A stretch of DNA of 64,000 bases from a virus: the UHGV virus genome UHGV-1375844; one strand, given 5' to 3'. Shown here piece after piece: positions 2,226 through 29,967 of this stretch. Numbering within the stretch: position 1 is the first letter of the stretch; each line of letters opens with the position of its first letter. The position numbers were made by a program, and so were the translations under genes. The notes below the pieces were generated by a model. That model saw only the letters and a program-made list of their open reading frames with translations, did not search any database and was not told the DNA's origin.

Positions 2226-2243
2226 TAGAATTTCCTTGTTTTT

Positions 2244-2264
2244 AAAACAATTTGTTTTCTGATG
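2244..2264 (-). promoter_or_regulatory. Conserved promoter-proximal near-palindrome (AAACAATTTGTTTTCT family), copy 1, upstream of the VWA gene
   Basis: Plus-strand aaaacaatttgttttctgatg lies between a GATACA -10-like hexamer and the RBS of the gene starting at 2225; same motif at 8 other gene starts. Confidence 0.45.
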
Positions 2265-2339
2265 TGTGAAATGTATCACTGTACGAACAGGCCGCTAAAC
2301 TGTTCGTACAGGTCAACTTAGGGGATCAGGGAAGGACGT

Positions 2340-2561
2340 TTAGTTCGTTCTGACTGCTAAGGAGCCGCAGCCGGTATTGATGAGTGTGAAGCGCTTATCA
2401 CAAAGTTCGAAGGTAAAGGCGGTGGCGTCACCCATATCGAGGGAAATCTGTTTTGCTGGAAGGTCGGCTAGGATTGCCGCCACCTTTTCCTCGTGCAAAG
2501 AGAAAATATGGCCAACTTCAAGTTTGTTCAAATTACAGGCTATTTTTTCCATTTCATTCAT
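2340..2561 (-). CDS. Hypothetical small protein (73 aa)
   Basis: ORF track; divergent from the HTH gene across an AT-rich intergenic region (2562-2814); followed by a 10-bp-stem hairpin at 2281-2313. Confidence 0.35.
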   Translation of the reverse strand: MNEMEKIACNLNKLEVGHIFSLHEEKVAAILADLPAKQISLDMGDATAFTFELCDKRFTLINTGCGSLAVRTN

Positions 2562-2814
2562 CCAACTACAACGGTTTCTAAACGTTTCTGAATACTACTA
2601 CCTATTGTATCAATAAGGAATATTTTCATATCAGATGTTTCTGCTTGCGTGACAATGAAAATGCAAATCATTATTCGCTTAAGTCTTGCCCTGTCTGGGA
2701 TTTAAGAGCATAATGTGCCGCCAACAAATGATAGATAAGTCTTTACAACCCTGACCTTTGATGTAATATCAGTAAGCACTTACCAGAGACAAATAAAACA
2801 CGCAGGGTTTAATC

Positions 2815-3195
2815 ATGGCTACCAATGAAACAAAACAAGGTCGCTACGCCGCCTATATCGACTCTCTCATCACCATTTCTCCAAAAAGTCAGGCCACTAT
2901 TGCTAAGGAAATTGGGTACAAAAACCCCAATAATCTATCGCTTATCAAAAGTGGCAAAATTCCTCTGCCGGTGGACAAGGTTCGCCCGTTGGCCAACTCT
3001 TTGGATGCTGATCCAGTACGTCTCATGCTCATGGTTCTCGAAGAGCGTCACCCTGAGCTTCTTGAGTTCTTCCGTGATGAAGGCACAGCTCCGCTTTCCC
3101 AAGACGAAAAACAGGTATTGGATGCTTTTCGTAAGCGTTTCGATGGTCAACAAGGTGCTTCAGAACAGGTCGTCGAGGCCATCAAGTCAATGTGA
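2815..3195 (+). CDS. Putative HTH transcriptional regulator (candidate lysogeny-switch protein)
   Basis: N-terminal segment SQATIAKEIGYKNPNNLSLIKSGK resembles an XRE-type helix-turn-helix; divergent promoter region with 2340..2561; convergent with and adjacent to the integrase; variant of the intergenic palindrome (agtaagcacttac, 2771-2783) upstream. Confidence 0.5.
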   Translation: MATNETKQGRYAAYIDSLITISPKSQATIAKEIGYKNPNNLSLIKSGKIPLPVDKVRPLANSLDADPVRLMLMVLEERHPELLEFFRDEGTAPLSQDEKQVLDAFRKRFDGQQGASEQVVEAIKSM

Positions 3196-4293
3196 GAAAT
3201 TTATACGAATAAGCTCTGTCGCTAGACGATCTCCCTTGAAATTATGGTCTATCTCGTCTAAATCTGGTTGTTCTACGATGGATGCGATGTACGCCGAAAA
3301 TTTACATAAGGCGTCTCGCATTTCATCCATATAGTCGTGACGGTCGTAAACCCGATCTATACCTTCAAGGCTATGGTTCATGATTTTACGAGAGACTTCC
3401 TGATTAATACCCAGGGCAGGGAAATAGCTACGCGCAGTTCTTCGCAGATCGCGTGGGGTGAAAACCTCAACCTCCATCAACTCCGGACGTTCCAAAATCC
3501 TCCGGAGCGCCTGTGATATGGCTACTTTAGACATTGGCATGTCCTTATCGCGTTTCTTGTTTGAGGGCACCAGCCACTGGCTGTCTTTCCCATATTTAAA
3601 CAGTTCCTCGACGCACTTCCTCATCAGCGGGCTTAACGGTAGAGCATGTTGCCTGGCCGATTTATTACGTGTGCCTTGATTCCATACATCACGTTGAAGG
3701 TTGAACTCACTCTTCTTGGCCCGGAGCACTTCATCGGGTCGCCTGGCAGCCACGAGACATAATCTGGCCGCCCACTTTGTCCCTTCGCATACGTTGAAAT
3801 AATCCCAGACGTTCCAAAAAACCCAAACTTCGGCGTCCGTTAGCTTCCGTTCCCGGGGCGTAGGTTTGGCGCCACCAGCGACTTTGTTGAGCGACATATC
3901 GTTCAACGGCGACGTTTCGATGACCCCCTGGAAGGCGCACCAGCCCAAAAACTGCTTCATCAGGGAAAACACACGCCTGCCCATGACGATCTTCCCTTCC
4001 AGAATGAGCGGGTTCACCAGCTGGTTGACGAGAACCCTACTAATGTCACTTACTTTTACATCAGAGATAAAAGGTAAAACATGTATCAAAACACAATGGA
4101 CGGCGATCTCCGGTCGGCGTCTTGTTATGAGTAAAGATAAGCGAGTGAATAACAAGAAGGCATCTGAAAACTTCATGTCGCCACTTACCAGAGAGGCTGC
4201 CATCGCATTCATTTGCGAAGCCCGTTCCAGAAACTCAATCGCTTCTCGTGAGGTGTTTTCGGCTGCGCGTGCTCGATCAAACGAATTTTTCAT
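3187..4293 (-). CDS. int: Tyrosine recombinase / phage integrase (P4-like)
   Basis: C-terminal FTPRDLRRTARSY ... NHSLEGIDRVYDRHDY matches the box II / catalytic Tyr region of tyrosine integrases, but with Arg where the first box II His is usual; 368 aa. Confidence 0.75.
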   Translation of the reverse strand: MKNSFDRARAAENTSREAIEFLERASQMNAMAASLVSGDMKFSDAFLLFTRLSLLITRRRPEIAVHCVLIHVLPFISDVKVSDISRVLVNQLVNPLILEGKIVMGRRVFSLMKQFLGWCAFQGVIETSPLNDMSLNKVAGGAKPTPRERKLTDAEVWVFWNVWDYFNVCEGTKWAARLCLVAARRPDEVLRAKKSEFNLQRDVWNQGTRNKSARQHALPLSPLMRKCVEELFKYGKDSQWLVPSNKKRDKDMPMSKVAISQALRRILERPELMEVEVFTPRDLRRTARSYFPALGINQEVSRKIMNHSLEGIDRVYDRHDYMDEMRDALCKFSAYIASIVEQPDLDEIDHNFKGDRLATELIRINFSH

Positions 4294-4559
4294 AGTCCAA
4301 TCACTTAGTTAGCCGTAACACTGTATGTATAAACAGTATATTAGGCATTGTTTCTTATGGGATCAAGCCTAACGTTACAGTGATTTTACCAATGATTCCA
4401 TACTTAATAGGTATGGAATCATTAGAGGGCATTTTTTTGAATTTTTACCAGTATTTGGGGGGAGAGATTATGGAAACAGTGACCAGTTGCAGAAACGATT
4501 AAAAAAGAGTGGCTAAGCGCGGTAAGCCCAAACCGAATGAAGAGTTACCGCGCGAAATT

Positions 4560-5183
4560 TTAAAAATCTTCCGCTTGTTCGTACCAGTCGCGTTCGGTAT
4601 CCGATTCTATGCGAGTAATTTCAAAATCCTCATCAATAAAATTCCACTTTTCATCACGCCATGACAAACGAACTTTGGCCTCTACATCAAACTCTGTACC
4701 GGAATAAACATGGTCAGGCAGCTGATCGCCCAAATAGTTGAATGCCACCTGCATGTCAAGAATACCCTTTGTTTCATCGTAAGCAGTATCGAGTACCGTT
4801 AGATCATCAATGACGAAACCTTCGGCGTTCGTGGTTGCGATATCTGCTGCTAACTCGTCATCCACGGCCATTTCAAGAGAGAGAAAGGGGCCATTATGAT
4901 AGATAGCTTCTTCGAAATTATTGTCACCAAAAGCGGCCATTAACAAACGAGACTCAAGCGGCGTTTCTTTGGAAACCTTAGTAAGCTCATGATAATTAGA
5001 GAAGTTCGAGTTTTTGGCGATGATCTCTAATGCCTGAGAATGCGTGAGAGAAACATCTGAGCGAGCCAGTTTTTTGGCTTTGGTTTTGATGAGTTCAAGA
5101 CAAGAATATTGTGACATGGCCGTTCTCCAAATTTCTGACGCTTTTGGAAACCGATAGCCTGCTAACCGGACTCCGCGCGTCAC
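4560..5183 (-). CDS. Hypothetical acidic protein (likely start at internal Met, MSQYSCLELIKTK)
   Basis: ORF track; no recognisable motif. Confidence 0.45.
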   Translation of the reverse strand: MTRGVRLAGYRFPKASEIWRTAMSQYSCLELIKTKAKKLARSDVSLTHSQALEIIAKNSNFSNYHELTKVSKETPLESRLLMAAFGDNNFEEAIYHNGPFLSLEMAVDDELAADIATTNAEGFVIDDLTVLDTAYDETKGILDMQVAFNYLGDQLPDHVYSGTEFDVEAKVRLSWRDEKWNFIDEDFEITRIESDTERDWYEQAEDF

Positions 5184-5385
5184 AAATGTGGGCGAGCCAA
5201 GTATTTTAAGGGTAAATCATGATGGGCTATTGCTTCGCGAGACAGGCGCCAGGTGACCATCACCACCTGGCGTCATAATGGCAAATTCATCTAATTAAGT
5301 CAAACTGAGCATCTCTGGTGCGGGTTGATCCAAAAAGATTGCCGTATAAATTACTATTACTGAACGTGGCTAATGTGGGCCTTTT

Positions 5386-5634
5386 TCATAGCGTACTCAC
5401 CAGTGCCGCAAATTCTGTATAACCCCCGATAGGCTCACCATTTACGAACACCTGCGGTATGGTTTCCACCGGCTTGCCAACCAGGTCGCTCAACTTCTCT
5501 TTGTCGATCCCGGCCGCCATGATGTCAATGTATTCGTAATCACCAAAGCCGTGGCCCTGCAGCTGCTTCGCCAGCTCGACCGCACGTTTGCAGTATGAGC
5601 AATTATCGCGTCCGTAGATAACGACCTTCATCAC
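5386..5634 (-). CDS. Glutaredoxin (NrdH/Grx-like)
   Basis: 82 aa; VVIYGRDNCSYCKRA CxxC active site and TIPQVFVNGEPIGGYTEF glutaredoxin signature. Confidence 0.8.
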   Translation of the reverse strand: MMKVVIYGRDNCSYCKRAVELAKQLQGHGFGDYEYIDIMAAGIDKEKLSDLVGKPVETIPQVFVNGEPIGGYTEFAALVSTL

Positions 5635-5996
5635 TTCACCTCGTGCAGCTGCTGCTTGAGAAGATAGCCTTCCAGGGGCCAGATTTTGGCAATCGCGTTC
5701 TGGCGTGCAATTTTACGTCCGATCTCCGGATCAAAGTTCTCCGGGCTGGCGCACGCAGACTCGCCAGTTACCGTGTAGCCGTTCTCCAGCACAAGAACGC
5801 AGAAGGTCAGCAGTTCGAGTGATTGCGGGGCCGGCTCAGGCTCTTCCTGCTTCAGCCACAACGGTGAGCTGCGATATCCGTCCGCGCCGGTAAAGTAAAA
5901 CTCGCCTGAGATAACGGCTTCGATGCGTTCCGGGGTAACACGCGCGGCCGTTTTGCCTTTGGCCACGATCTCTTTCTCGATATCCATATCGGTCAT
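5631..5996 (-). CDS. Gp49-like phage protein (PF13876-like)
   Basis: 121 aa; segment VTGESACASPENFDPEIGRKIARQNAIAKIWPLEGY resembles the N4 gp49 / Sf6 gp66 family as I recall it; 4-nt overlap with the glutaredoxin gene. Confidence 0.45.
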   Translation of the reverse strand: MTDMDIEKEIVAKGKTAARVTPERIEAVISGEFYFTGADGYRSSPLWLKQEEPEPAPQSLELLTFCVLVLENGYTVTGESACASPENFDPEIGRKIARQNAIAKIWPLEGYLLKQQLHEVK

Positions 5997-9362: not shown

Positions 9363-9604
9363 GTTATTTAGTGTGGTGGCCGGCGCTGATCTCCGGCATA
9401 ACAACCCGACTTAAATTCGCGACTTTAAATCGGTTCCTCCGTTTGTCCACTTTAGCCCGGAGTTAGCAACCTCAGTCACTCACCGATATGCCTATCGGTG
9501 GCGCGCATCAGCCTGCGCATTCACCACAACGGTGAGAGCACTCTTGGCGAACCTGTAGATTGGGCTATGATCCCGTTACAAGCGAATGCTCTTACCTGTT
9601 GTGT

Positions 9605-19845: not shown

Positions 19846-19986
19846 ATGCGATATAGCCTAAATGCCTACGGCTGCGGTGTAAAGGTGAAATGGTAGGTAT
19901 TATCGAGATAGAGAGGGTCTTGAGATTAAGAATGAGAAGAGGTAAACAACTTTTGGCGAGAAGGCGGCACATAGCCGCCAGACTGT

Positions 19987-21104: not shown

Positions 21105-21346
21105 GTGTCCACCTTAGCCGTTAACACAAGTGTCATTGCGGCACCCCTTCCGGGGTTAAAGGCTACGAGTATGCGTAGCTTGTATGTGTCCCACTTACGT
21201 GGATGCCTAATAAATCTACATCAAATTGCTAAATGGTTCAACATGAGGTTGCGTGAACAGGCGTGTATACGGGTGAAGATGCCATCTTTAGGATAAAAGG
21301 TAAATTGGAGGCGCCACATAATTTCTGGCGCCCATAAATCACCAAC

Positions 21347-21574
21347 TCAGCTCCGGTGCTCCCACTTACACAACCTTTCACCTATCGTATTGTGGATAAG
21401 CAGCTGTCGCTCTGTTTCCTCGGTCATAAAATCCTCTCTACTCACATAGATAGGATTTGCGGCATCGCAGAATTGTACGCCCAAGGTCTGGGGTTTAATC
21501 ACGCATCCACTTATCGCGAAGCTCGCGATGAATGGCAGAAGCATCCTTAGCCCTGACTTCATTAATCGTTTCAT
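21347..21574 (-). CDS. Rz1-like o-spanin lipoprotein
   Basis: Signal peptide + lipobox (LLPFIASFAISGC); 75 aa; 80 nt of its 5' end overlap the 3' end of the Rz-like gene in another frame. Confidence 0.5.
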   Translation of the reverse strand: MKRLMKSGLRMLLPFIASFAISGCVIKPQTLGVQFCDAANPIYVSREDFMTEETERQLLIHNTIGERLCKWEHRS

Positions 21575-21746
21575 TTTTCACATCCACTGTGTTCTGAAGC
21601 CGTTTCCTGTCGTCTTGCCGCGCCTTTTCTTCCATTGCTTGCCGCGCCGCACGACCACCCATCGTATAGGCGCCTGCAAGCACTAAAAGAACGGCAGCCG
21701 CGGTAATCAGAGCAATCTTTAGCTTCGAAAATAGGCTGCCGAACAT
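21495..21746 (-). CDS. Rz-like i-spanin
   Basis: Internal ATG at 21746 with AAAGGA RBS (MFGSLFSKLKIALITAAAVLLVLAGA...); N-terminal TM helix then charged coiled-coil; the longer ORF-track frame (to 21944) overlaps the upstream gene and is taken as spurious. Confidence 0.5.
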   Translation of the reverse strand: MFGSLFSKLKIALITAAAVLLVLAGAYTMGGRAARQAMEEKARQDDRKRLQNTVDVKNETINEVRAKDASAIHRELRDKWMRD

Positions 21747-21747
21747 A

Positions 21748-22440
21748 TCAGACGATTCCTTTCTGATGCTTTCTGACCTGCGACCAGGCAATGAAGCCGG
21801 CCACGACGATAGTTGCGATCCCGAAGACGATGCGGATCGTGTCACCGCTGGTAATGTGGCCCTGTGCCTTGTCCATTGCCACCGATACCTGTGGCATGAC
21901 ATCGGCCAGCTGCGCCAGGCCAATACCTGCCGTAACGGTCGCACCGGCAGTCTCTTTGGTAACGGGAACAGCTTTTACAGTCTTTACCGGTTTGACAATG
22001 CCGGCACGTCGCAGACCTTCTTCGATAAGCTCGGATGCATACCAGGTATTTGGTGTTTTCAGCGGACCTCGACCATTTTCGTGTCTGATGATCGCCTCTA
22101 CCAGCGGTCTTAGGGTCTCGTAGTCATGTAAATCGATCACCATGTCCGGCGTGACACCAACAGCTTTGGCCACCTCATTCACGTAAGCCACAGTGTTGTT
22201 CTCATGTGGAGGCGCCCAGCGCTCAATAACTTCGCGGATCGTGTCGATGCTTGAGCCGTCTTTGGCTCGACGTTTGTCATGGTAGGTGATGAGCGTAACT
22301 GCCAATGCGCGAATCCCCCATACGGGATCTTTGAAAGTGCAGAAGCGCGGTTCTGAAGGGTTGTCGACTAAGCCCTGCCACGGCGAACCTTTATCAAGAT
22401 TGCCAGGGTTGTTGTTGCGAATACCTCTTGGAGTTTTCAT
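21748..22440 (-). CDS. Putative endolysin / peptidoglycan hydrolase-like protein with C-terminal TM helix
   Basis: Position between holin candidate and Rz/Rz1; N-terminal RGIRNNNPGNL motif that I associate with phage lysozyme-like proteins (recall only); C-terminal hydrophobic helix IVFGIATIVVAGFIAW. Confidence 0.4.
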   Translation of the reverse strand: MKTPRGIRNNNPGNLDKGSPWQGLVDNPSEPRFCTFKDPVWGIRALAVTLITYHDKRRAKDGSSIDTIREVIERWAPPHENNTVAYVNEVAKAVGVTPDMVIDLHDYETLRPLVEAIIRHENGRGPLKTPNTWYASELIEEGLRRAGIVKPVKTVKAVPVTKETAGATVTAGIGLAQLADVMPQVSVAMDKAQGHITSGDTIRIVFGIATIVVAGFIAWSQVRKHQKGIV

Positions 22441-22451
22441 CCTTGATCTCC

Positions 22452-22787
22452 TTATTGCAGTCCATTTTTAACGCCGTAAGCGGCCAGCCCCAACAGCAGT
22501 ACGGTAATCAGGAACGACGTAATCTTTGAGACAATGCCGCCAAAAAACCCGCTGGAGATGGAGTCGAGCCGATTAAGAAGTTTGTCCAGATTTGAATGCT
22601 GGATGCTGTGTTGTGCCGGGGTCATATCGCCAAAGTAGGTCTTGAGCTGATCGTTAACTTCCTGACCAATCTCCTCGCGCAGTTCTTTGCCCAATTTGCC
22701 GACTACCTCGCGGGCAACAATCGCGGCAATGCGCTCTACCTGCTCTGGCGTTACGCCTGCCATCTCGTTCGACATTATTTCCTCCAT
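22452..22787 (-). CDS. Putative holin (position-based), C-terminally anchored membrane protein
   Basis: 111 aa; single C-terminal TM (ITSFLITVLLLGLAAYGV); first gene of the lysis cassette. Confidence 0.35.
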   Translation of the reverse strand: MEEIMSNEMAGVTPEQVERIAAIVAREVVGKLGKELREEIGQEVNDQLKTYFGDMTPAQHSIQHSNLDKLLNRLDSISSGFFGGIVSKITSFLITVLLLGLAAYGVKNGLQ

Positions 22788-22838
22788 GAAAAGTCAAATC
22801 GGGATGGCAGGGTTATAACACATTAGCAAACAATTTTG

Positions 22839-22857
22839 TAGGTAAGCACTTACTTAT
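22839..22857. repeat. Intergenic palindrome family, copy
   Basis: taggtaagcacttacttat. Confidence 0.6.
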
Positions 22858-22865
22858 TAATGCAT

Positions 22866-23690
22866 TTAAACACGGGTGCCATGAATTGTGCCAACCGTCA
22901 CCCACGTTGGGGCATTACCATTAACAGCAGCGCCACCAGCCCCACCTGCATACGGGGTGATATTCTTCCCCCCTCCAGACTGCGAAGCAGCTGCACCAGC
23001 GGAACCCAAGTCACCACCTTTCCCGCCAACAGATGTTCCAAGGCTTGTGGAGGTATTCCCTGCACCTGGAGCCGTAAGCGAAGCATTGCTGCCGTTGCCA
23101 CCGCCGCCGCTGGGGTAGGTTTTTGTACCACCGACGCCAAATGGTCGCCCGCCGCCGCCGCCTGAATAAGTTGGTTTATTATTACCAGCCCCAACAGCGC
23201 CGCCGCCTCCACCACCGCCTCCAATAATGCCGTTATTTTGGATGCGCAGTTTGCTTCCGATGGCATTGGTGATCGCAGGACCGCCCGGCTTACCTTTGTT
23301 GGCATCGCCGTTTCCTCCACCGCCGCCATTTCCCCCACGGCCAAGCACCATTTGTCCCGAGTTAATCACAAGCAAGATATAAGCGCAGCTGGCAAGCTCG
23401 CTTGTAAAATTGAGACAGGGCGCACTGGCAGAACTCGACACAATGGTACCGGTGATGTTGACTCTGATGGCGTTGTCCTTCACGCCTAAAGACTTAATCT
23501 GATTGACTAGAGTAGACCAGGAATAGTTGTTGTTCGCTGAAACATTGATGACCTGCTCTCTGGACTTGCCTACCAGGGTTTTCATCCAGAAAGGGGCGCC
23601 AACCCGTACAGATCTGCCGGCAGCTGACATCCATCGTTGCCCAGTCTCACTTACTGCGGAGGAGCCAACCCATCCGGAGTTGATGGTCAT
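22866..23690 (-). CDS. Tail fibre / receptor-binding protein 2, glycine-rich C-terminal domain
   Basis: Start re-placed at ATG 23690 (MTINSGWVGSSAVSETGQRWMSAAG...); N-terminal ~40 aa paralogous to 25124..25681; long poly-Gly runs (GGGGGGGG). Confidence 0.6.
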   Translation of the reverse strand: MTINSGWVGSSAVSETGQRWMSAAGRSVRVGAPFWMKTLVGKSREQVINVSANNNYSWSTLVNQIKSLGVKDNAIRVNITGTIVSSSASAPCLNFTSELASCAYILLVINSGQMVLGRGGNGGGGGNGDANKGKPGGPAITNAIGSKLRIQNNGIIGGGGGGGGAVGAGNNKPTYSGGGGGRPFGVGGTKTYPSGGGGNGSNASLTAPGAGNTSTSLGTSVGGKGGDLGSAGAAASQSGGGKNITPYAGGAGGAAVNGNAPTWVTVGTIHGTRV

Positions 23691-23694
23691 TTTC

Positions 23695-23840
23695 TCATCT
23701 CCTTGAGTTCCATAACCTCTTTTTCGACGCTTTAACAGCTTCGACCATAATCCCAATGATACCGTTACATTTCAGACGAAGGCGTTCTTCTCCTGAATGG
23801 TCGTTTTTATCGGCTGTAACCAGCTCTGGTTGCAACTTTT
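23695..23840 (-). pseudogene. Remnant of a tail-fibre C-terminal intramolecular-chaperone domain
   Basis: Start-less frame KLQPELVTADKNDHSGEERLRLKCNGIIGIMVEAVKASKKRLWNSRR aligns with the C-terminus of the L-shaped fibre (KVQPELVTVDKNDQSGEERLRLNYNGVIGLLVEAVKELRDEI); DNA homology to 25681-25840. Confidence 0.6.
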
Positions 23841-23941
23841 ACATCTCGGGCGGTCAAGCTACCCGCCATCTTGCCCGACATCATTTCCTTAATGAAAGTC
23901 AGTTCAGATGGCAGGTAATACTATACTTTTTTTACCGGTCT

Positions 23942-23961
23942 ATAGGTAAGCACTTACCTAT
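23942..23961. repeat. Intergenic palindrome family, copy
   Basis: ataggtaagcacttacctat. Confidence 0.6.
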
Positions 23962-23975
23962 ATAACAAGCTAATT

Positions 23976-24221
23976 TTAGGATTTTGGGCAGTTGATGGAG
24001 GTGAACGCCCCTTGCCCCACCCAACGCCAGTTAAAAATACTCCCGGCCCGATAAAGCGTATACTTACCTTCTTTCTTGATCGCATAAATTGGCACACTCG
24101 TTGACGAACCGCCAACCATTGCCTTCCCATAGCAAACAGGCTCTGGTAATTTTTGACAGGCGCTCAATGTAAGTGTTACGCCTAGTAATAAAACTAATTT
24201 CTTCATTTTATATTCCATCAT
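23976..24221 (-). CDS. Small lipoprotein (candidate Cor/Llp-like superinfection-exclusion protein)
   Basis: Signal peptide with lipobox (MKKLVLLLGVTLTLSAC); ~60-aa mature part; sits inside the receptor-binding gene cluster. Confidence 0.5.
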   Translation of the reverse strand: MMEYKMKKLVLLLGVTLTLSACQKLPEPVCYGKAMVGGSSTSVPIYAIKKEGKYTLYRAGSIFNWRWVGQGAFTSINCPKS

Positions 24222-24826
24222 CCGTAGAGATTTCTGTTTAAGACTGGAACTCGGTTGTTGATAGCAAGGCTCGCCCCTCCATTAATTTCATTAACAAGGA
24301 TAGAACTCACGGTATTTCCGTAGCATGTGTAGCCGTAAACCAGCGTCTTAGCGCCACCCGGCATTGGAATAGCAAAGGCGTTAGCGTAAGTTGGCACAAC
24401 CGCTACCGGATAATTGAATACGTGCTTATCATTACTGTTCCAGCTATTATTATCAAGAAATGTGAAAGACAGTGGGATATTTGCCGTGTTATAGATCTCA
24501 ACCCCTGAAGAATTGAAAAAACTCATTCCCCATTTTTCTTTTCTGGTTATGCCCGTAGCGAAAACATACACAGTTACGTTTGAATCACTCCCACGTCCAC
24601 CGAAGCTGTAAATAACCTGGTTATTGCGAACTATACGATTCGCAAGCAGTGAAACAGCTTTTGTATACGCCACGAAGACCATAGGGGACCGATCAGGAGA
24701 TAGTCCCGTATTGAACTCGCTCCCCCCTTTCAGTGAGACAACATGTTTGCTCTGGAAAACCAGAGGCGTAAGGCTTGGAGACATCCAGACCTTTCCATCA
24801 GATCGAACGATTTTGCTTCCGTACAT
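24218..24826 (-). CDS. Hypothetical protein (202 aa), tail-fibre locus
   Basis: ORF track; start overlaps the upstream stop (TAATG). Confidence 0.45.
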   Translation of the reverse strand: MYGSKIVRSDGKVWMSPSLTPLVFQSKHVVSLKGGSEFNTGLSPDRSPMVFVAYTKAVSLLANRIVRNNQVIYSFGGRGSDSNVTVYVFATGITRKEKWGMSFFNSSGVEIYNTANIPLSFTFLDNNSWNSNDKHVFNYPVAVVPTYANAFAIPMPGGAKTLVYGYTCYGNTVSSILVNEINGGASLAINNRVPVLNRNLYG

Positions 24827-25080
24827 TATTTCTGAAACACCATTAGGTAGATGGTTCCGTATGCATTTGTCCAGTTAATCTGGTTTCCTGAAATGGTTAC
24901 ACTGCCAATGTTGCCATTCAGTGTTTCCATAATGTAGTAATCAAGAGACATCCCCGACTCGACAGCATACCTTCTGCTGCCGCTACCGGTTGGCTGAAAA
25001 TAATCCAGATAATAAATTGGCGCTAAGGCGTCGACCATTTCCTGTCTGCTCGGCGACCAAATTTTTGCTCCATAACTCAT
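24826..25080 (-). CDS. Hypothetical protein (84 aa), tail-fibre locus
   Basis: ORF track. Confidence 0.4.
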   Translation of the reverse strand: MSYGAKIWSPSRQEMVDALAPIYYLDYFQPTGSGSRRYAVESGMSLDYYIMETLNGNIGSVTISGNQINWTNAYGTIYLMVFQK

Positions 25081-25123
25081 ATATCATCCTTGATTATGTA
25101 AGGCGCTTGTGGGCGCCTTCTAA

Positions 25124-25681
25124 TTAAATTTTAGTTACGGCAATCGTTTTGCCATTTTGATTGTAAAGCCAGCCTCCTGCTGTACTCGCTCTATAATGCC
25201 TGGTGTTATATGCAAAGTGGCTCGGAGTGAAGGTAAAATTAGTTCCACCAAAAGAAAGCGTGAAATTTTGGTTCGGCCCATTAGTTAAACCTATATACAT
25301 GGTTGTCGCATTTTGAACCTGGGAAACATGCGTAATAGCACACCCCAATAATGTTCCACTAACAGAGCCTGTTGCGTTAATCGAGAGCGGTTGTTGCGCA
25401 CCGCTTACGACTGTTGCAGCAATGGCTCCTGTTTGAACGGAGTTATTTGAAAAACCACCATACGAGGATGTCCCTTGAATGAATTGACCGTTCGAAATCT
25501 GCGCTCTGAAAGCGTATGTGTTCCGGCCAACCACCACCGTGAAGTCCTGCATCGCTTTTCCAACCAGAGAACTCATCCAAAACGGAGTGCCAACCTTAAC
25601 TTTGGAGCCAGCGGCAGACATCCACCGCTGGCCAGTAGTTGATACGGCTGACGACCCGACCCATCCTGAGCCAATCGCCAT
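25124..25681 (-). CDS. Tail fibre / receptor-binding protein 1
   Basis: N-terminus MAIGSGWVGSSAVSTTGQRWMSAAG... paralogous to 22866..23690; start overlaps the stop of the L-shaped fibre (TAATG). Confidence 0.6.
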   Translation of the reverse strand: MAIGSGWVGSSAVSTTGQRWMSAAGSKVKVGTPFWMSSLVGKAMQDFTVVVGRNTYAFRAQISNGQFIQGTSSYGGFSNNSVQTGAIAATVVSGAQQPLSINATGSVSGTLLGCAITHVSQVQNATTMYIGLTNGPNQNFTLSFGGTNFTFTPSHFAYNTRHYRASTAGGWLYNQNGKTIAVTKI

Positions 25682-28600
25682 TATCTGTTCTCCTTGATTT
25701 CACGGATTTCGTCACGCAGCTCTTTCACCGCTTCGACCAGCAGTCCAATGACGCCGTTATAGTTCAGACGCAGACGCTCTTCCCCGGATTGGTCATTTTT
25801 ATCAACCGTTACCAGTTCTGGCTGTACCTTCTGAACATCCTGAGCGATCAGGCCACCAGACTGCTCGTATCGATCATGTACCTGAATCTCATACAGAACC
25901 CCTTCAATCTGCCCCAGCTTGTCGAGTGCGCTCTCGATTTTGCGGATATTCCGCTTACTTCTACGGTCAGAACGGATATATACGTCGTTGAAGCTACCAT
26001 TACCGCCACATACCCAAGTGCCATCGTTTTGCAGATATGCCTGGGCATCCGTACCGTTGGCCGTCCGTGAGTTGTTGATCATGTAAAAACCAAACTGGCT
26101 GTTACCCAGACCGCCGACGAAAAACTTACGATCGGCATGATCTTGTCTCAACAACGCTTGGGCCGAGCTGGTTGACACGGCATTCCGTCCAAAAATAACG
26201 TTCTGATCACGCATGTTAATCCACGAGCCAGAGCCGCTATTGATGGCGAAGCGACCTGCGTAGACCCACGCACTTGAAGTAATGTCTCCTGACACAGAAA
26301 GGGGCTTATTGCTTTGCAACGTCCCGTTGACGAATCGGAACACATGAGCGCTATTGGCGTAGACATCCAGTACGCCATCCCCATTTTGCTTAAACCCGGT
26401 ATCGTTATCTCCCAGAACAATAGAGTTCCCACCTAATCCATTCGTTACGCCTAAACCGAGGCTGCCGGCAATAGTTGCGCCACCAGCGATATCAAGGCCG
26501 TTAGCCATCGACGCACGACCAGAAGTGTTGTTAATGGTCAGCGGTCGAAGGCCGTTCCATCCACCAAACTTGTCGCCTGATGCCGTTAAAAGGAAATAGG
26601 TGCTGCTGCCATCGTTTCGGATGAAGAAGCCAAAGTTACCGTAAGCAGCTCGCAGAGCATTGGCGCTTAATGAGGTGATCTCATTTCTTGCACGAACACC
26701 ATATCCAGTGTTGATAATGAGTTCCTCTTGCGCGTCAGTATTCCCTGTCGCCCAACGGATAGTTCCACCCTGAACCGTCTCGTGCCAGATTGTGTCGCTA
26801 CTTCCCCCGCGGTATTTGCGGAGATATTTCTTACCCCCTGTCGTGCCTCCACATAAAGCGGTGGCCATGTACGTGCCCTGGGCGCCGCCATCCTGATTAA
26901 TGGTTCCGGTAACTGCTCCACCGCCTGTAGGGAGTGCCCCAACCTCAGCGGCGCTCGGTTTGTTAGCCGTGGTGTAGATCTGCGCCCAACCAGACCAATT
27001 GGCGTCAGTGGTATCACGACGAGAGCGGATGTAAGCTGGGGCATGGCCACCGCTGGTGCCACTCCAGCCGAGTAACAACTCGCCTTCGCCTGCAGCAGAC
27101 CCTCCTTTAAAATGAAGAACGTTGCCGTAAGTTGTTGGATAGCCGTTGTTGTAGGCTTCATACATCTGGATACCCGGCATGGCCCCCTGCGTACTTCCGG
27201 CCAGCGCGGTAACGCGACCGCGAGATACCAGAGTAGGGATGCTGATATTCGCGGTACCATCAAAAGCGACATTGTTGATCGATCTTGCCGTCTGCAATTT
27301 GCTCGCTGAGACCGCATTAGCACCTGAAGCAAGAGCGCCAATATCGGCAGGCGTTGGCTTATTACGGGTGTTATATAAGCGACGCCAGCCTGGTCCATAG
27401 CCGTCACCATTATTTACGTAAATAAACTCGGCGTTAGTTACCCCACCATGACCTGTCGTCGTTGGTGTGGTAATGCGGATCGTGTAGTTACCTGAGTTTC
27501 CATTGCTGAAAACTTCAATAACTGAACCAGAGAGATCAATCCTGCCGCATCCAGTGTCGTCAATGTAGTTATTGCTGGCGTAAGACCATGAGCAACGCGC
27601 GATCCAACATTTATACCCAAAAGCACCTTGTTCATTAAGCCAGGTAACAAACTGAGCTGTGGTAAAGGCCGCACCACTGCCACTATTCAGCCAACCACTA
27701 ACTGCTGCCGCAGCATTGATGTTTGCCGGGCTAATGTTAATGTCAGAAGAACCGTCGAAGTTTACACCTGCGATTTTACGTGCGGTTTGTAGCTTAGTTG
27801 CAGTCGCTGCGTTGCCTGTCGTGCTTTGATTTCCCTGGGTGTTAACACCAGGCAAGTTGATATCGGCGGAACCGTCAAAATTCACCCCACCAATTTTTCG
27901 GGGCGTCCTGAGCTTGCTGGCCGTACCCGCATTCCCTGATGTTGACTGGTTCCCCTCGGCATTCACACCCGGAAGATTGATGTCCTGGCTGCCATCGAAC
28001 AGCACCCCACCAATACGACGTCCCGTCTGGAGTACCGTCGCAGTACTCGCATTGCCCACCAGTGAGCCTGTAATAGCACCATTGATGTCTGAAAGTACTC
28101 GATGATATACCGTTCCCTCTACGGCGCCTTCAGGCAACGAGTCAACCGATTCGATCACTTCCAGCGATTCAACCGCGGCGCCGGAGAATTGCAGGTTCAC
28201 AATTAACTTTTGAGCGCCCGCGCCCACGCGAAGGTAGATGTCGTAATTTTCTTCGTCGGTATTAACGGTGGCCACGCTATTTACAGCGGAGTCCTGCGTT
28301 AAATAGGCAACAGCATTGAGACCTTTGGGATCGCCCCCCGCTGTGCGAAGAACAATGTCAGCCATCGCAGCCTGGCCTGGGCTATCGGTATCATAGCCAG
28401 CGCCACCGATCACTTCGATGTAGACAGTGCTGGTCGCTTGCGGCATACGCGCACGCGAGACTTTTACCCACTTGGGCGTATCAGAGGTCAAGTCCAGTTC
28501 GGCGGACGTACCTTTCCATTTCACGCTGGCGATACTGGACTGCGCATTCTGCGCATATTCGTATGCCTTGTCCTCAGACGCTTTCGCTTTCGTCTGGGAT

Positions 28601-29880
28601 GCTTTGGCCTCAGCTGCCGAAGTCGAGGCCTCGGACGCTTTTGCTGTCGCGAGTGTGGCCGACTCAGCGGCTTCTGTTGCCTTTGCTTCAATACCTGCCA
28701 GCGCGTCAGTTGCGGTGGTCGCAGATGCGGCTGCGCTTGCCTCAGACTTCTTCGCTTCGCCAGCACTTGATGCAGCTGCATCTTTGCTGGCCTCTGCCGC
28801 ATCAGCATATTCGCCAGCTGTAGTGGCGCTCCCCGCCGCCGCGTCAGCGCTTAAACCGGCAGCCACTTTACTCGCGGCGGCGGCTGTTTCCGAGGCGGCA
28901 GCGTTGGTTTCAGACACTTTAGCCGCGGCAGCGCTGGCGGCCGACCCGTCGGCGCTCTGCGCCGCGTTTGTTTCAGATGTTTTGGCTGCGTTCTGAGATG
29001 CAAGTGCGGCAGCTGCACTACCCGCTGCTGCGTTTTCCGATGCGGCGGCATTGCTCTCAGAAACTTCAGCAGCCGCAGCGGAATTAGATGCTGCGGTCGC
29101 AGAATCCGCAGCAGAGACAGCGCTGCCAGCAGCGTTAGTTTCTGAGGCTTTCGCGGCATTTTTGGACGCTGCGGCACTCGAAGCAGATGCCCCTGCTTCG
29201 GCGGCTTTCTCCGTTGCGGTGGCAGCTGAAGCTACAGCAGTCTCTTTATAGCTTTCTGCATTCGTTTCGGAGGTCTTTGCACCCTTAGCGGCTTCGCTGG
29301 CAACGCTTTCGGATGCAGCAGCTGCGGCAGCACTTTTACTGGCCTCAGTCGCCTTTGTTCCGGCAGTGCTTGCGCTATTGGCAGCTGCTGCTGCGCTGGC
29401 GGCTGCCTGTTTAGCTTTGTCACCCGCGGCATCGATTGCATCCGTATTGTCTCTGTACCATTGCTGGTTGGCATTGTGCTCATTGACGATTTGGGTGAGC
29501 GATTTGACTGTCACCTCAGTGCCGTCCTCGCGTTCGAGTGTCACTTCATCAATGGCAGTTAACCAGCTTCGCATTGTCTTCGAGTCGGCTGACATTCGAG
29601 TCATCAATGCCGTGAAGCGAGCACTGAACTGTGTCAGATCGCCTTCATAGGTAGTGATGATGCGGCATGGGACATCATTCTGGGTCTCACCCGAGTACTG
29701 CTCCATAAGTGTCAGGCGGGTGTCATTTAGCACACGCTTAATTTCGTACAGCTTGTTATCGGGGCCGATGACAATCATGCCCGGCAACACGCCATTGGCA
29801 GTGACGTTCCAAAACGTGCCAGTGCCCTCAAGCGTGTCACTTCCCTGTGTAAATGTGATAGTACCTTCCCTGTACCACAT
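25681..29880 (-). CDS. L-shaped tail fibre-like protein with C-terminal intramolecular chaperone (peptidase S74-like)
   Basis: 1399 aa; ~290-aa Ala/Ser-rich low-complexity repeat region; C-terminus ...IRSDRRSKRNIRKIESALDKLGQIEGVLYEI... resembles the self-cleaving chaperone domain of T5 pb1 and endosialidases. Confidence 0.75.
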   Translation of the reverse strand: MWYREGTITFTQGSDTLEGTGTFWNVTANGVLPGMIVIGPDNKLYEIKRVLNDTRLTLMEQYSGETQNDVPCRIITTYEGDLTQFSARFTALMTRMSADSKTMRSWLTAIDEVTLEREDGTEVTVKSLTQIVNEHNANQQWYRDNTDAIDAAGDKAKQAAASAAAAANSASTAGTKATEASKSAAAAAASESVASEAAKGAKTSETNAESYKETAVASAATATEKAAEAGASASSAAASKNAAKASETNAAGSAVSAADSATAASNSAAAAEVSESNAAASENAAAGSAAAALASQNAAKTSETNAAQSADGSAASAAAAKVSETNAAASETAAAASKVAAGLSADAAAGSATTAGEYADAAEASKDAAASSAGEAKKSEASAAASATTATDALAGIEAKATEAAESATLATAKASEASTSAAEAKASQTKAKASEDKAYEYAQNAQSSIASVKWKGTSAELDLTSDTPKWVKVSRARMPQATSTVYIEVIGGAGYDTDSPGQAAMADIVLRTAGGDPKGLNAVAYLTQDSAVNSVATVNTDEENYDIYLRVGAGAQKLIVNLQFSGAAVESLEVIESVDSLPEGAVEGTVYHRVLSDINGAITGSLVGNASTATVLQTGRRIGGVLFDGSQDINLPGVNAEGNQSTSGNAGTASKLRTPRKIGGVNFDGSADINLPGVNTQGNQSTTGNAATATKLQTARKIAGVNFDGSSDINISPANINAAAAVSGWLNSGSGAAFTTAQFVTWLNEQGAFGYKCWIARCSWSYASNNYIDDTGCGRIDLSGSVIEVFSNGNSGNYTIRITTPTTTGHGGVTNAEFIYVNNGDGYGPGWRRLYNTRNKPTPADIGALASGANAVSASKLQTARSINNVAFDGTANISIPTLVSRGRVTALAGSTQGAMPGIQMYEAYNNGYPTTYGNVLHFKGGSAAGEGELLLGWSGTSGGHAPAYIRSRRDTTDANWSGWAQIYTTANKPSAAEVGALPTGGGAVTGTINQDGGAQGTYMATALCGGTTGGKKYLRKYRGGSSDTIWHETVQGGTIRWATGNTDAQEELIINTGYGVRARNEITSLSANALRAAYGNFGFFIRNDGSSTYFLLTASGDKFGGWNGLRPLTINNTSGRASMANGLDIAGGATIAGSLGLGVTNGLGGNSIVLGDNDTGFKQNGDGVLDVYANSAHVFRFVNGTLQSNKPLSVSGDITSSAWVYAGRFAINSGSGSWINMRDQNVIFGRNAVSTSSAQALLRQDHADRKFFVGGLGNSQFGFYMINNSRTANGTDAQAYLQNDGTWVCGGNGSFNDVYIRSDRRSKRNIRKIESALDKLGQIEGVLYEIQVHDRYEQSGGLIAQDVQKVQPELVTVDKNDQSGEERLRLNYNGVIGLLVEAVKELRDEIREIKENR
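28560..29430. repeat. Low-complexity Ala-rich repeat-coding DNA within the L-shaped fibre gene
   Basis: Reiterated A-S-E-T-N-A-A-like units; produces spurious long ORFs on the opposite strand. Confidence 0.6.
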
Positions 29881-29917
29881 ATTCGCTCCTTGAAAGGACG
29901 GGCATCCTTGCCCGTCA

Positions 29918-29937
29918 TTAAGTAAGTACCTACTTAT
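29918..29937. repeat. Intergenic palindrome family, copy
   Basis: ttaagtaagtacctacttat; adjacent 7-bp-stem hairpin gacgggc-atcctt-gcccgtc (29896-29916). Confidence 0.6.
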
Positions 29938-29967
29938 TTTTACCGATATAAAGAAATATTTCTACTA

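What the first reader, a model, noticed from the sequence alone, without database searches (positions are those of the whole stretch)
22866..25840. Mosaic receptor-binding locus: two paralogous fibre genes with swapped C-termini and a decayed copy of a fibre chaperone domain
Proteins at 25124..25681 and 22866..23690 share an almost identical N-terminal ~40 aa (GSGWVGSSAVS.TGQRWMSAAG..V.VG.PFW) but have unrelated C-terminal domains; the second is extremely glycine-rich. Directly upstream of the second gene, a start-less frame (23695-23840) aligns at protein and DNA level with the C-terminal intramolecular-chaperone region of the large L-shaped fibre (25681-25840). This is the scar of a duplicated and replaced fibre cassette, direct evidence of host-range module exchange.
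Basis: seen in the sequence. Interest (0 to 1): 0.6.

Follow-up and report, generated by a model that had tools for sequence, protein, structure and literature searches.

The report
Two stacked fibre-tip adhesin genes
A plasmid-like Salmonella/Enterobacter phage carries two intact genes for alternative receptor-binding caps of its single long tail fibre, joined by a decaying recombination scar, so it probably recognises two different receptors; this is an interesting variant of a well-known system, not a new kind of one.

Summary
The window is an SSU5-like phage-plasmid, 99.4-99.6% identical to Salmonella plasmid pSA20094620.2.

The two "fibre genes" are small gp38-type tip adhesins. Both carry the 40-aa Gp38_N docking domain (33/42 identical, all three docking tryptophans kept).
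- adhB (22866..23690) is a full-length homologue of phage S16 gp38, the polyglycine-sandwich adhesin.
- adhA (25124..25681) has an unrelated beta-sandwich C-terminal domain with no solved relative.

Between them lie three accessory genes and a 285-nt scar made of two relics:
- a decayed copy of the intergenic region and first ~6 codons of the holin gene;
- fused to it, the last ~173 nt of a fibre gene (71% identical to the intact fibre 3' end, with frameshifts, and lacking the catalytic half of the S74 chaperone).

Relatives carry either cassette alone, so the cassettes were stacked by one illegitimate recombination, not swapped. The same junction occurs in at least 22 further contigs.

adhB is under strong purifying selection (dN/dS 0.05-0.12) while the relic beside it decays at about the synonymous rate. 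The fibre tip is conserved whichever adhesin accompanies it. Most likely both adhesins cap the same fibre, but this is inferred. Similar adhesin pairs occur in two unrelated phage backgrounds. Moderate interest.

The parts
25681..29880 (-). Long tail fibre gene (1399 aa). It contains a T4 gp34-like trimerisation domain, a tip domain about 70% identical to Mu fibre S residues 341-445, and a C-terminal self-cleaving intramolecular chaperone (Peptidase_S74). The SDRRSK motif starts at residue 1304 (nt ~25971), and the chaperone region spans 25684..25971.
   Evidence: Pfam Gp34_trimer 2e-22 and Peptidase_S74 1.5e-12. PDB 5YVQ and 6F45_A alignments. Cleavage-site alignment.
25124..25681 (-). adhA: short tip adhesin (185 aa). 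Gp38_N docking domain at residues 1-40 (nt 25562..25681), followed by a beta-sandwich C-terminal domain with no solved relative. Its start codon overlaps the fibre stop codon (TAATG).
24826..25080 (-). orf84: accessory gene of the A cassette, function unknown.
   Evidence: phrog_557. Present in A-only relatives and absent from B-only relatives.
24218..24826 (-). orf202: accessory gene of the A cassette, function unknown.
   Evidence: phrog_425 2e-48. Same distribution among relatives as orf84.
23976..24221 (-). Cor-type superinfection-exclusion lipoprotein, the last gene of the A cassette.
   Evidence: NCBIfam NF047972 7e-24 and phrog_1119 7e-30.
23864..23975 (-). Relic 1: decayed copy of the cor-holin intergenic region (palindromic hairpin at 23942..23961) plus the Shine-Dalgarno sequence, start codon and first ~6 codons of a holin gene (ATG at 23881).
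   Evidence: 23915..23865 vs 22811..22759, 79% over 53 nt, E 2e-4. Alignments with the holin upstream regions of SSU5, L022 and L003: 55-63% identity, against 79-99% among the functional copies.
23693..23863 (-). Relic 2: the last ~173 nt of a fibre gene, i.e. only the C-terminal ~58 aa of the ~96-aa S74 chaperone. It carries a 2-nt and a 1-nt deletion and lacks the SDRRSK catalytic motif. Its last ~20 nt keep adhB's native Shine-Dalgarno sequence (TCAAGGAGA).
   Evidence: blastn 70.7% over 174 nt, E 1e-23. Repeat family D1. Protein 27/35 identical, E 4e-17. Multiple alignment. Collinear with the fibre-adhB junction of B-only element L003.
22866..23690 (-). adhB: S16/T2-type gp38 adhesin (274 aa). 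Gp38_N at residues 1-39 (nt 23574..23690), then beta-helix and polyglycine-sandwich domain at residues 45-274.
   Evidence: Pfam PF21721 1.3e-19 and PF05268 1.1e-49, profile positions 1-218 of 218. PDB 6F45_D E 1.7e-36 over residues 1-272. dN/dS 0.05-0.12.
22788..22865 (-). Functional copy of the intergenic region upstream of the holin gene, carrying the GTAAGTGCTTAC hairpin. It is the downstream boundary of the variable adhesin region.
   Evidence: 92.7% identical to the equivalent region of B-only L003 over the aligned 22730..22880 stretch, which also includes the first holin codons.
22452..22787 (-). Holin (SSU5 gp26 homologue). It is followed by the endolysin gene at 21748..22440.
   Evidence: SSU5 annotation and phrog_5093.

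Best explanation
The locus encodes one long tail fibre and two alternative caps for its tip.

How the fibre and adhesins work (inferred from homologous systems):
- The fibre trimerises with help from its C-terminal S74 chaperone, which then cuts itself off at the SDRRSK site.
- A monomeric gp38-type adhesin docks on the exposed tip through its N-terminal three-helix domain, using three conserved tryptophans. This is how phage S16 gp38 docks on gp37.
- adhA (SSU5-type, beta-sandwich head) and adhB (S16/T2-type, polyglycine-sandwich head) share that docking domain but have unrelated receptor-binding heads.
- I therefore propose that both are made late in infection and compete for the same fibre tips. 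Virions would carry a mixture of fibre caps and could adsorb to two kinds of receptor.

How the arrangement arose (shown by sequence comparison):
- One illegitimate recombination joined an A-type cassette (fibre-adhA-orf84-orf202-cor-holin) to a B-type cassette (fibre-adhB-holin).
- Codon ~6 of the A-side holin was joined to a point ~173 nt before the end of the B-side fibre gene.
- The two truncated gene ends are non-functional relics and are decaying. The exception is the last ~20 nt, which supply adhB's ribosome-binding site.

Shown versus inferred:
- Shown: gene identities, junction anatomy, single origin, spread of the arrangement, selection on adhB, decay of the relics.
- Inferred: expression of both adhesins, docking of both on this fibre, and a widened host range.
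For: Identity of the parts
- Both proteins have Gp38_N, and adhB also has the full GP38 domain.
- adhB aligns end to end with the S16 gp38 crystal-structure chain 6F45_D (E 1.7e-36). adhA aligns with it only over the docking domain.
- W7, W20 and W35 are kept in both. These correspond to the three tryptophans that insert into gp37 pockets (PMC6851490).
- The fibre ends in Peptidase_S74 with the SDRRSK motif, shared with S16 gp37.

Interchangeability of the adhesins
- A-only elements (SSU5, L004, L022) and B-only elements (L003, L005, L016-L021) both exist, so either adhesin type suffices alone.
- The ~80 fibre residues before the cleavage site are nearly invariant across them. The few variants do not sort by adhesin type.

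Junction anatomy
- Window 22000..23845 is collinear with B-only L003 at 91-92%, including ~150 nt of its fibre 3' end.
- Window 23943..25084 is collinear with SSU5 cor-orf188-orf84 at 79%.
- The holin start relic abuts the fibre relic.

Single origin and persistence
- The same junction is present in pSA20094620.2 and in all 7 fetched flanked loci L006-L012. A further 15 contigs are reported with the same neighbouring genes.
- These come from independent NCBI, ENA and Logan samples.
- Source names include Salmonella Mbandaka, Concord and Kentucky, and Enterobacter kobei and hormaechei.

Selection
- Window vs pSA20094620.2 adhB: 13 synonymous and 2 non-synonymous changes. Window vs L006: 4 and 0. 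dN/dS is 0.05 within the lineage and 0.11 against B-only relatives.
- The chance of so few non-synonymous changes under neutrality is 1e-8.
- The adjoining fibre relic is 29% diverged (JC 0.37, close to adhB dS 0.42), whereas intact fibre 3' ends differ by 7%.
- At the relic's frameshift density, about 9.5 frameshifts would be expected in adhB. None is seen (P 7e-5).

Translation signal
- The AAGGAG Shine-Dalgarno sequence, 8 nt from the ATG, is kept for adhB exactly as for adhA.

Recurrence elsewhere
- A polyglycine gp38 followed directly by an adhA-family short adhesin occurs in Hafnia Ounavirinae phages.
- The same pair follows one S74 fibre on a 222-kb Enterobacter ludwigii plasmid.
Against: - There is no expression, virion-protein or adsorption data for either adhesin in this element. 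SSU5 gp22 itself is called an adhesin only by homology.
- adhB has lost the stop/start overlap with a translated fibre gene. In this window the small upstream ORF stops 116 nt before adhB.
- No promoter or terminator stands out above chance in the junction, so transcription of adhB by read-through is assumed.
- The relic copy of the holin upstream region is itself decayed, so it probably does not drive adhB.
- A few cluster members have shortened or frameshifted adhB N-termini (P0064 and P0069 at 239 aa, P0070 frameshifted). These may be real losses, sequencing errors or gene-calling artefacts.
- The pre-cleavage tip resembles Mu fibre S rather than S16 gp37, so the docking geometry is extrapolated.
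- Part of the window-versus-pSA20094620.2 divergence in adhB may have been imported as a recombination patch rather than accumulated in place.
Confidence: 0.6

Rival explanations
1. Passenger gene. The stacking is a neutral by-product of recombination. Only adhA, translationally coupled to the fibre, caps the fibre. adhB is poorly expressed or not expressed and has simply not decayed yet.
For: - adhB has lost its coupling to an intact fibre gene, and no promoter is detectable in the junction.
- Some cluster members have damaged N-termini.
- In PLSDB only 2 records with a Gp38_N match (both 106,569 bp, probably one strain) carry this SSU5-type arrangement; a third two-copy record, a 222-kb E. 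ludwigii plasmid, belongs to a different element.
Against: - Purifying selection is strong within the dual lineage: 17 synonymous against 2 non-synonymous changes, P 1e-8.
- The ORF is intact although the neighbouring relic has gathered frameshifts and ~29% substitutions.
- The Shine-Dalgarno sequence is conserved.
- The arrangement is kept in all 22 flanked contigs, across diverged backbones.
Confidence: 0.2
2. Replacement caught in progress. One cassette has functionally replaced the other, and the superseded cassette is on its way out.
For: The fibre 3' end and holin 5' end at the junction are clearly decaying. Direct repeats flank each cassette and could mediate loss of either one.
Against: - Both adhesin ORFs are full length and their domains score like those of single-copy relatives.
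- The flanking repeats are only 71-79% identical and short, so deletion should be rare.
- No single-cassette derivative with these exact alleles was found. adhA with this exact sequence is on 96 contigs. adhB is on 23 contigs as the window allele, and the cluster listing counts 61 contigs for the pSA20094620.2 allele and 5 for a shortened 239-aa form.
Confidence: 0.1
3. Division of labour rather than alternatives. The short adhA-family protein is a tip cap, assembly factor or primary-contact module, and the polyglycine adhesin is the true receptor binder (or they act in sequence). The pair would then work together.
For: The same pairing (polyglycine gp38 plus adhA-family protein) recurs in three unrelated backgrounds. 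adhA's head domain has no characterised relative.
Against: - Each type occurs alone in otherwise similar, apparently complete elements.
- In S16 one gp38 monomer occupies all three docking pockets of a fibre trimer (PMC6851490), which leaves no room for a second Gp38_N domain on the same tip.
Confidence: 0.1

Closest known systems
T2/T6/S16-type gp37-gp38 long-tail-fibre tip (Straboviridae): fibre with a self-cleaving C-terminal chaperone, capped by a monomeric gp38 adhesin (PDB 6F45)
   Same: - adhB is a full-length homologue of S16 gp38.
- Both adhesins have the Gp38_N docking domain with the three tryptophans.
- The fibre ends in an S74 chaperone with the same SDRRxK motif as S16 gp37.
- The B-only gene order fibre-adhesin-holin mirrors g37-g38-t of T-even phages.
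   Different: - The host element is a temperate siphovirus-type phage-plasmid, not a virulent myovirus.
- The pre-cleavage tip is Mu-S-like rather than gp37-like.
- Two adhesin genes with different heads follow one fibre gene.
Modular gp38 adhesins of T6 versus RB43 (Trojet et al. 2011, PMC3157838)
   Same: A conserved N-terminal module is combined with unrelated C-terminal adhesin modules. adhA, adhB and RB43 gp38 share only the N-terminal ~50 aa.
   Different: In that work the alternative modules sit in different phages. Here two module types coexist in one genome, with the recombination junction still visible.
Salmonella phage SSU5 tail locus (gp21 fibre, gp22 'tail fiber adhesin', gp23, gp24, Cor, holin)
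   Same: Same gene order for the A cassette. adhA is 50% identical to gp22. The backbone is an SSU5-like phage-plasmid.
   Different: SSU5 has a single adhesin and no relics. Here the B cassette is inserted between cor and holin.
Tandem duplications in T4-superfamily tail-fibre loci (g37 duplications in RB43 and Aeh1; PMC3157838)
   Same: Tandem stacking of host-range genes whose function is undetermined. A metagenomic T4-like contig with two S74 fibres before one g38 was seen here (L025).
   Different: In those cases the fibre gene is duplicated. Here the fibre is single and the adhesin is doubled, and the second fibre copy survives only as a 173-nt relic.
Phages that carry two receptor-binding proteins at once (T5-like DT57C LtfA/LtfB branched fibres, PMC4728585) or that switch fibre tips by inversion (Mu Gin, P1 Cin; from my own knowledge)
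   Same: They reach the same end: more than one receptor specificity from one genome.
   Different: No branching adaptor is present, and no invertase or inverted repeats flank the adhesins. The proposed mechanism is competition of two monomeric caps for one docking site.

Membership tests
gp38-type tail-fibre tip adhesin (Pfam Gp38_N PF21721 with or without GP38 PF05268) | N-terminal attachment domain (Gp38_N) | tested here: met
   adhA 1.4e-20 and adhB 1.3e-19, both above the gathering score and covering profile positions 1-40 and 1-39 of 40.
gp38-type tail-fibre tip adhesin (Pfam Gp38_N PF21721 with or without GP38 PF05268) | Three conserved tryptophans at the helix apices that dock into the fibre trimer | tested here: met
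   W7, W20 and W35 are present in both and align with W7, W20 and W36 of S16 gp38. Their role is described in PMC6851490.
gp38-type tail-fibre tip adhesin (Pfam Gp38_N PF21721 with or without GP38 PF05268) | C-terminal beta-helix plus polyglycine sandwich with glycine-rich motifs and variable loops | tested here: met
   This holds for adhB only (PF05268 1.1e-49; 6F45_D E 1.7e-36). adhA lacks it: there is no PF05268 hit and its model is a beta-sandwich. adhA therefore belongs only to the wider Gp38_N-bearing group.
gp38-type tail-fibre tip adhesin (Pfam Gp38_N PF21721 with or without GP38 PF05268) | Gene lies directly downstream of a fibre gene whose product ends in a self-cleaving chaperone | tested here: met
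   adhA overlaps the fibre stop codon. adhB follows only a relic of such a gene, but its closest relatives directly follow an intact fibre gene.
gp38-type tail-fibre tip adhesin (Pfam Gp38_N PF21721 with or without GP38 PF05268) | Physical presence on the fibre tip and binding to a host receptor | not testable with these tools
   This needs virion proteomics and adsorption assays.
Peptidase_S74 intramolecular chaperone (auto-cleaving C-terminal domain of fibres and spikes) | Complete S74 domain with the Ser/Lys cleavage motif at its start | tested here: met
   The intact fibre meets this: PF13884 1.5e-12, with SDRRSK at residue 1304 conserved in all relatives and in S16 gp37.
Peptidase_S74 intramolecular chaperone (auto-cleaving C-terminal domain of fibres and spikes) | The same feature, applied to the remnant at 23693..23863 | tested here: not met
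   The remnant covers only the last ~58 of ~96 residues, lacks the SDRRSK motif, carries a 2-nt and a 1-nt deletion, and has no start codon in that frame. It is a relic, not a chaperone.
SSU5-like phage-plasmid | Collinear SSU5-type tail, lysis, partition and replication genes on a ~105-110 kb non-mobilisable plasmid | tested here: met
   16 kb of the window is 99.6% identical to pSA20094620.2 (106.6 kb, circular, IncFIB, non-mobilisable). The gene order matches SSU5.
Invertible-segment host-range switch (Mu Gin / P1 Cin type), considered | Inverted repeats flanking alternative fibre-tip genes, plus a site-specific invertase | tested here: not met
   Both adhesin genes face the same way. No inverted repeats flank them, and no recombinase gene lies in 19000-33000.

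The most novel reading that the evidence does not exclude
One fibre, two competing caps. The phage-plasmid would routinely produce phenotypically mixed virions whose fibres carry either a polyglycine-sandwich adhesin or a short beta-sandwich adhesin, hedging between two receptor classes or host genera.

The pairing 'polyglycine gp38 plus short Gp38_N adhesin behind a single S74 fibre' recurs in three backgrounds: SSU5-like plasmids, Felix-O1-like Hafnia phages and a 222-kb Enterobacter plasmid. It may therefore be a general, so far undescribed dual-receptor strategy of enterobacterial phages.

One loose correlation fits this. B-only elements were seen only in Enterobacter, while the dual lineage is found in both Salmonella and Enterobacter.
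Probability: 0.4. Interest if true: 0.6.

Novelty: new variant of a known kind. Interest (0 to 1): 0.42.

Why it matters
SSU5-like phage-plasmids are common in clinical and food-chain Enterobacteriaceae and can carry resistance genes. Their host-range determinants are described as poorly understood (PMC9600943).

A natural element that keeps two interchangeable fibre caps under selection offers three things:
- a testable explanation of how such elements reach more than one receptor or genus;
- a natural template for engineering dual-specificity phages by adding a second Gp38_N-tagged adhesin rather than swapping the existing one;
- an unusually clean fossil of how a host-range cassette is gained, with both broken gene ends still readable.

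The underlying parts are already well established: gp38 adhesins, S74 chaperones and modular exchange of adhesin heads.

Tried and rejected
- Species-representative genomes gave nothing. The adhB protein patterns produced no confirmed relative, and an exact 25-mer from the relic gave no match.
- IMG/VR gave only one locus, a B-only element, and no match to the relic 25-mer.
- The promoter/terminator scan of 22400-25800 found counts at chance level and nothing on the coding strand in the junction.
- The hairpins after cor and after adhA are modest and lack U-tracts, so I make no claim of a terminator or promoter.
- The Rfam E-value scan of 22000-26200 found nothing.
- Tandem Repeats Finder found only a glycine-codon repeat inside adhB.
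- adhA is not an RB43-type adhesin. Only the N-terminal 51 aa match.
- An invertible-switch reading was rejected, because there are no inverted repeats and no invertase.
- I could not find a donor whose fibre 3' end matches the relic closely. The best match was 75% over 136 nt in Enterobacter B-only elements. It therefore stays open whether the A block entered a B-type genome or the reverse.
- The SSU5 receptor paper (PMC3911222) is not held. Only its title, seen in a reference list, supports the statement that SSU5 is core-LPS specific.
- Literature searches found no description of two gp38-type adhesins serving one fibre. The searchable library is incomplete.

Full report
**What the window is**

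The region belongs to an SSU5-like phage-plasmid. The 4-kb stretch around the finding is 99.4% identical to Salmonella enterica plasmid pSA20094620.2 (NZ_CP030187.1; 106.6 kb, circular, IncFIB, non-mobilisable). About 350 other enterobacterial plasmids match parts of it at about 80-88%. Phage SSU5 itself matches at 81%. Sixteen kb of the window align collinearly with pSA20094620.2 at 99.6%. All genes of the locus lie on the minus strand.

**Checking the observation**

- BLASTP gives E 3e-22, and 33 of the first 42 residues are identical.
- Nothing else aligns between them.

The start-less frame upstream of the second gene is a true copy of the 3' end of the long fibre gene:
- blastn finds 77% identity over 109 nt, E 9e-13.
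- It is the only long direct repeat in 21700-30000.
- With gentler scoring the match covers 174 nt (23693..23863) at 70.7% identity with two gaps, E 1e-23.
- At protein level 27 of 35 residues are identical, E 4e-17.

**What the genes are**

Neither gene encodes a fibre. Both proteins begin with the Pfam domain Gp38_N (PF21721, E about 1e-20), the attachment domain of T-even-type tail-fibre tip adhesins.

adhB (22866..23690):
- It also matches the whole GP38 polyglycine domain (PF05268, 1e-49, profile positions 1-218 of 218).
- It aligns from residue 1 to 272 with the crystal-structure chain of Salmonella phage S16 gp38 (6F45_D, E 1.7e-36).

adhA (25124..25681):
- It matches S16 gp38 only over residues 1-54.
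- It belongs to PHROG 1121, 'tail fiber adhesin', and is 50% identical to SSU5 gp22.
- An AlphaFold model built on 20 homologues gives a confident beta-sandwich for residues 45-185 (pLDDT above 90).

The authors of the S16 structure describe how gp38 docks (PMC6851490). It is a monomer that caps the trimeric gp37 fibre through an N-terminal three-helix bundle. Three tryptophans at the helix apices insert into three equivalent pockets on the fibre. Those tryptophans (W7, W20, W35) are present in both adhA and adhB.

The long fibre (25681..29880, 1399 aa):
- It ends in a Peptidase_S74 intramolecular chaperone.
- The motif SDRRSK sits at residue 1304, conserved in all relatives and in S16 gp37.
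- In T2/T6-type phages the fibre C-terminus is cleaved and then capped by gp38 (PMC3157838).

**The surroundings and the junction**

Reading in the direction of transcription, the order is:
1. fibre
2. adhA, whose start overlaps the fibre stop
3. orf84
4. orf202
5. a Cor-type exclusion lipoprotein (NF047972, 7e-24)
6. a 285-nt non-coding stretch
7. adhB
8. holin
9. endolysin

Relatives show two simpler layouts:
- **A-only:** SSU5, an Enterobacter hormaechei plasmid and another assembly have fibre-adhA-type-orf84-orf188/202-cor-holin.
- **B-only:** Enterobacter ludwigii and asburiae plasmids, an IMG/VR contig and several assemblies have fibre-adhB-type-holin.

The window matches both layouts piecewise:
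- 22000..23845 is collinear with the B-only E. ludwigii element at 91-92%. This includes about 150 nt of that element's fibre 3' end.
- 23943..25084 is collinear with SSU5 cor-orf188-orf84 at 79%.

The roughly 100 nt in between is a decayed copy of the cor-holin intergenic region. It includes its palindromic hairpin, the holin Shine-Dalgarno sequence, the start codon and about six codons. It runs straight into the fibre relic.

The scar therefore has two parts, a holin 5' end fused to a fibre 3' end. A single illegitimate crossover between an A-type and a B-type genome explains it. I saw no more than 2-4 nt of possible microhomology at the join.

The flanks (fibre 5' part, holin, endolysin) are closer to the Enterobacter B-only lineage than to SSU5. 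No close donor for either relic was found. Which genome was the recipient therefore remains open.

**Are the relics dead and the genes alive?**

The fibre relic is dead:
- It lacks the catalytic half of the S74 domain.
- It has a 2-nt and a 1-nt deletion relative to intact fibres, and no start codon in that frame.
- It is 29% diverged from intact fibre 3' ends, which differ from one another by only about 7% in the same segment.
- Its Jukes-Cantor distance (0.37) is close to the synonymous divergence of the adjacent adhB gene from its B-only relatives (dS 0.42). That is what neutral decay predicts.

adhB is under selection:
- It is 89-90% identical in DNA to those relatives and has no frameshift.
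- dN/dS is 0.11 against B-only relatives. Within the dual lineage there are 13 synonymous and 2 non-synonymous changes against pSA20094620.2, and 4 and 0 against L006.
- The excess of synonymous change has P about 1e-8.
- At the relic's frameshift density, about 9.5 frameshifts would be expected in adhB (P of none 7e-5).
- The last nine bases of adhB's native ribosome-binding region (TCAAGGAGA) are unchanged inside the relic.

**Spread of the arrangement**

- The exact adhB protein is encoded on 23 contigs from independent NCBI, ENA and Logan samples. All 22 with enough flank show the same order fibre-adhA-orf84-orf202-cor-gap-adhB-holin.
- The junction sequence is the same, apart from a few substitutions and indels, in all 7 fetched flanked loci and in pSA20094620.2.
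- Backbones downstream differ between these contigs.
- Source names include Salmonella serovars Mbandaka, Concord and Kentucky, and Enterobacter kobei and hormaechei.
- The exact adhA protein is on 96 contigs, and the pSA20094620.2 allele of adhB is on 61.

The arrangement therefore arose once and has persisted and spread.

Differences between the window and pSA20094620.2 are concentrated in 22834..23985: 22 of 57 differences in 16 kb, P 2e-11. This is the B cassette bounded by the two copies of the intergenic region, which points to patch-wise recombination among elements that already carry both cassettes.

**Can both adhesins use this fibre?**

- The roughly 80 residues before the cleavage site are nearly invariant in A-only, B-only and dual elements.
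- The few variants (for example AYLQNDGTWVC versus AFLQ.DGVWYC) occur with either adhesin type.
- Either adhesin type is sufficient alone in otherwise similar elements.

This supports two alternative caps competing for one docking site, but it is inference. No expression or virion data exist. No promoter or terminator stands out in the junction, and the relic copy of the holin upstream region is decayed. A few database entries have shortened or frameshifted adhB N-termini, and I could not determine whether those are real.

**Comparison with what is known**

- Trojet et al. described the modular design (PMC3157838). T6 and RB43 gp38 share their N-termini and have unrelated C-termini. They also noted tandem g37 duplications of unknown function.
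- adhA, adhB and RB43 gp38 share only the docking module.
- The nearest non-plasmid relatives of adhB (52-62% identity) sit in T4-like contigs in the order g37-g38-holin t.
- Searching the phage collection with the docking domain gave 959 records and 980 places, so about 2% of carriers have two copies.
- In Hafnia phage SarahDanielle (Ounavirinae), a 255-aa polyglycine gp38 is followed 23 nt later by a 160-aa adhA-family protein.
- On a 222-kb Enterobacter ludwigii plasmid, one S74 fibre is followed by a 261-aa polyglycine gp38 and then a 170-aa Gp38_N protein that BLASTP aligns with adhA (34% identity, E 7e-19).
- I found no paper discussing such pairs.

**Verdict**

But this is stacking, not replacement, and the genes are tip adhesins rather than fibres. 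The parts and the principle of modular exchange are well known. What is new here:
- two differently headed Gp38_N adhesins behind a single fibre in a temperate phage-plasmid;
- a fully readable junction;
- clear selection on the second gene;
- recurrence of the same pairing elsewhere.

This is a new variant of a known kind, of moderate interest. The functional claim (mixed capping, wider receptor range) is plausible and directly testable, but unproven.

Noticed in passing
L002 7296..7484 (minus strand) versus window 23807..23884 and 23695..23835: In pSA20094620.2 the holin start relic is in frame with the fibre relic. This gives a 62-aa chimeric ORF (MMSGKMAGSLTAREIKLQPELVTADKND...) that ends 4 nt before the adhB start codon. 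In this window one extra base splits it into a 25-aa ORF and a start-less frame. Translation of the chimera could affect adhB initiation in the commoner allele.
   Followed up: partly
window 23942..23961 and about 22839..22853; SSU5 locus L001 about 9441..9460: A near-perfect 20-bp palindrome (GTAGGTAAG-NN-CTTACCTAC in SSU5 and L022) sits just upstream of the holin gene in all SSU5-like elements examined. It marks the downstream boundary of the variable adhesin region, and both copies survive here. It might be a regulatory site, a weak terminator or a recombination anchor.
   Followed up: no
window 22834..23985 versus L002: 22 of the 57 differences between this window and pSA20094620.2 over 16 kb fall in this 1.15-kb segment (P 2e-11). 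The segment is bounded by the two copies of the intergenic region, which looks like a recombination patch that exchanged the B cassette between dual-cassette elements.
   Followed up: partly
L023 (Hafnia phage vB_HpaM_SarahDanielle MW749010.1) 3..1276; L015 (E. ludwigii plasmid NZ_CP134650.1) 4547..10338: Two further, unrelated backgrounds carry a polyglycine gp38 adhesin followed directly by a short protein with a Gp38_N domain that BLASTP aligns with adhA beyond that domain (34-36% identity). About 21 of 959 phage records with Gp38_N have two or more copies.
   Followed up: partly
window 23976..25080: The A cassette always carries orf84 (phrog_557), orf202 (phrog_425) and a Cor exclusion lipoprotein along with adhA. 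B-only elements lack all three. What orf84 and orf202 do is unknown, as is whether Cor's target relates to adhA's receptor.
   Followed up: no
window 25972..26280 (fibre residues about 1200-1303): The fibre tip just before the S74 cleavage site is about 70% identical to residues 341-445 of phage Mu tail fibre S (PDB 5YVQ). Similarity to S16 gp37 is mostly confined to the chaperone. The fibre is thus a mosaic of T4 gp34-like, Mu S-like and gp37-chaperone-like parts.
   Followed up: partly
L010 (GCA_033408575.1 contig DARBSK010000023.1) 1..3010: One dual-cassette contig has a 636-aa fibre directly after a Big_2-domain tail gene. The tape-measure and J-like genes expected between them are missing, so this is probably a deletion derivative.
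   Followed up: no
L025 (Logan SRR22402288 contig) 473..5813: A T4-like contig carries two tandem S74-terminated g37 paralogues (747 and 731 aa) ahead of a single g38 adhesin and holin t. This is the converse arrangement: two fibres and one adhesin.
   Followed up: no
proteins P0064, P0069 (239 aa) and P0070 (255 aa), members of the adhB cluster: Some database copies of adhB start at Met36. One carries a frameshift in an A-run at codon ~37. These could be real losses of the docking domain, homopolymer sequencing errors or gene-calling choices. P0069 comes from the same IMG contig as a similarly shortened adhA model.
   Followed up: partly
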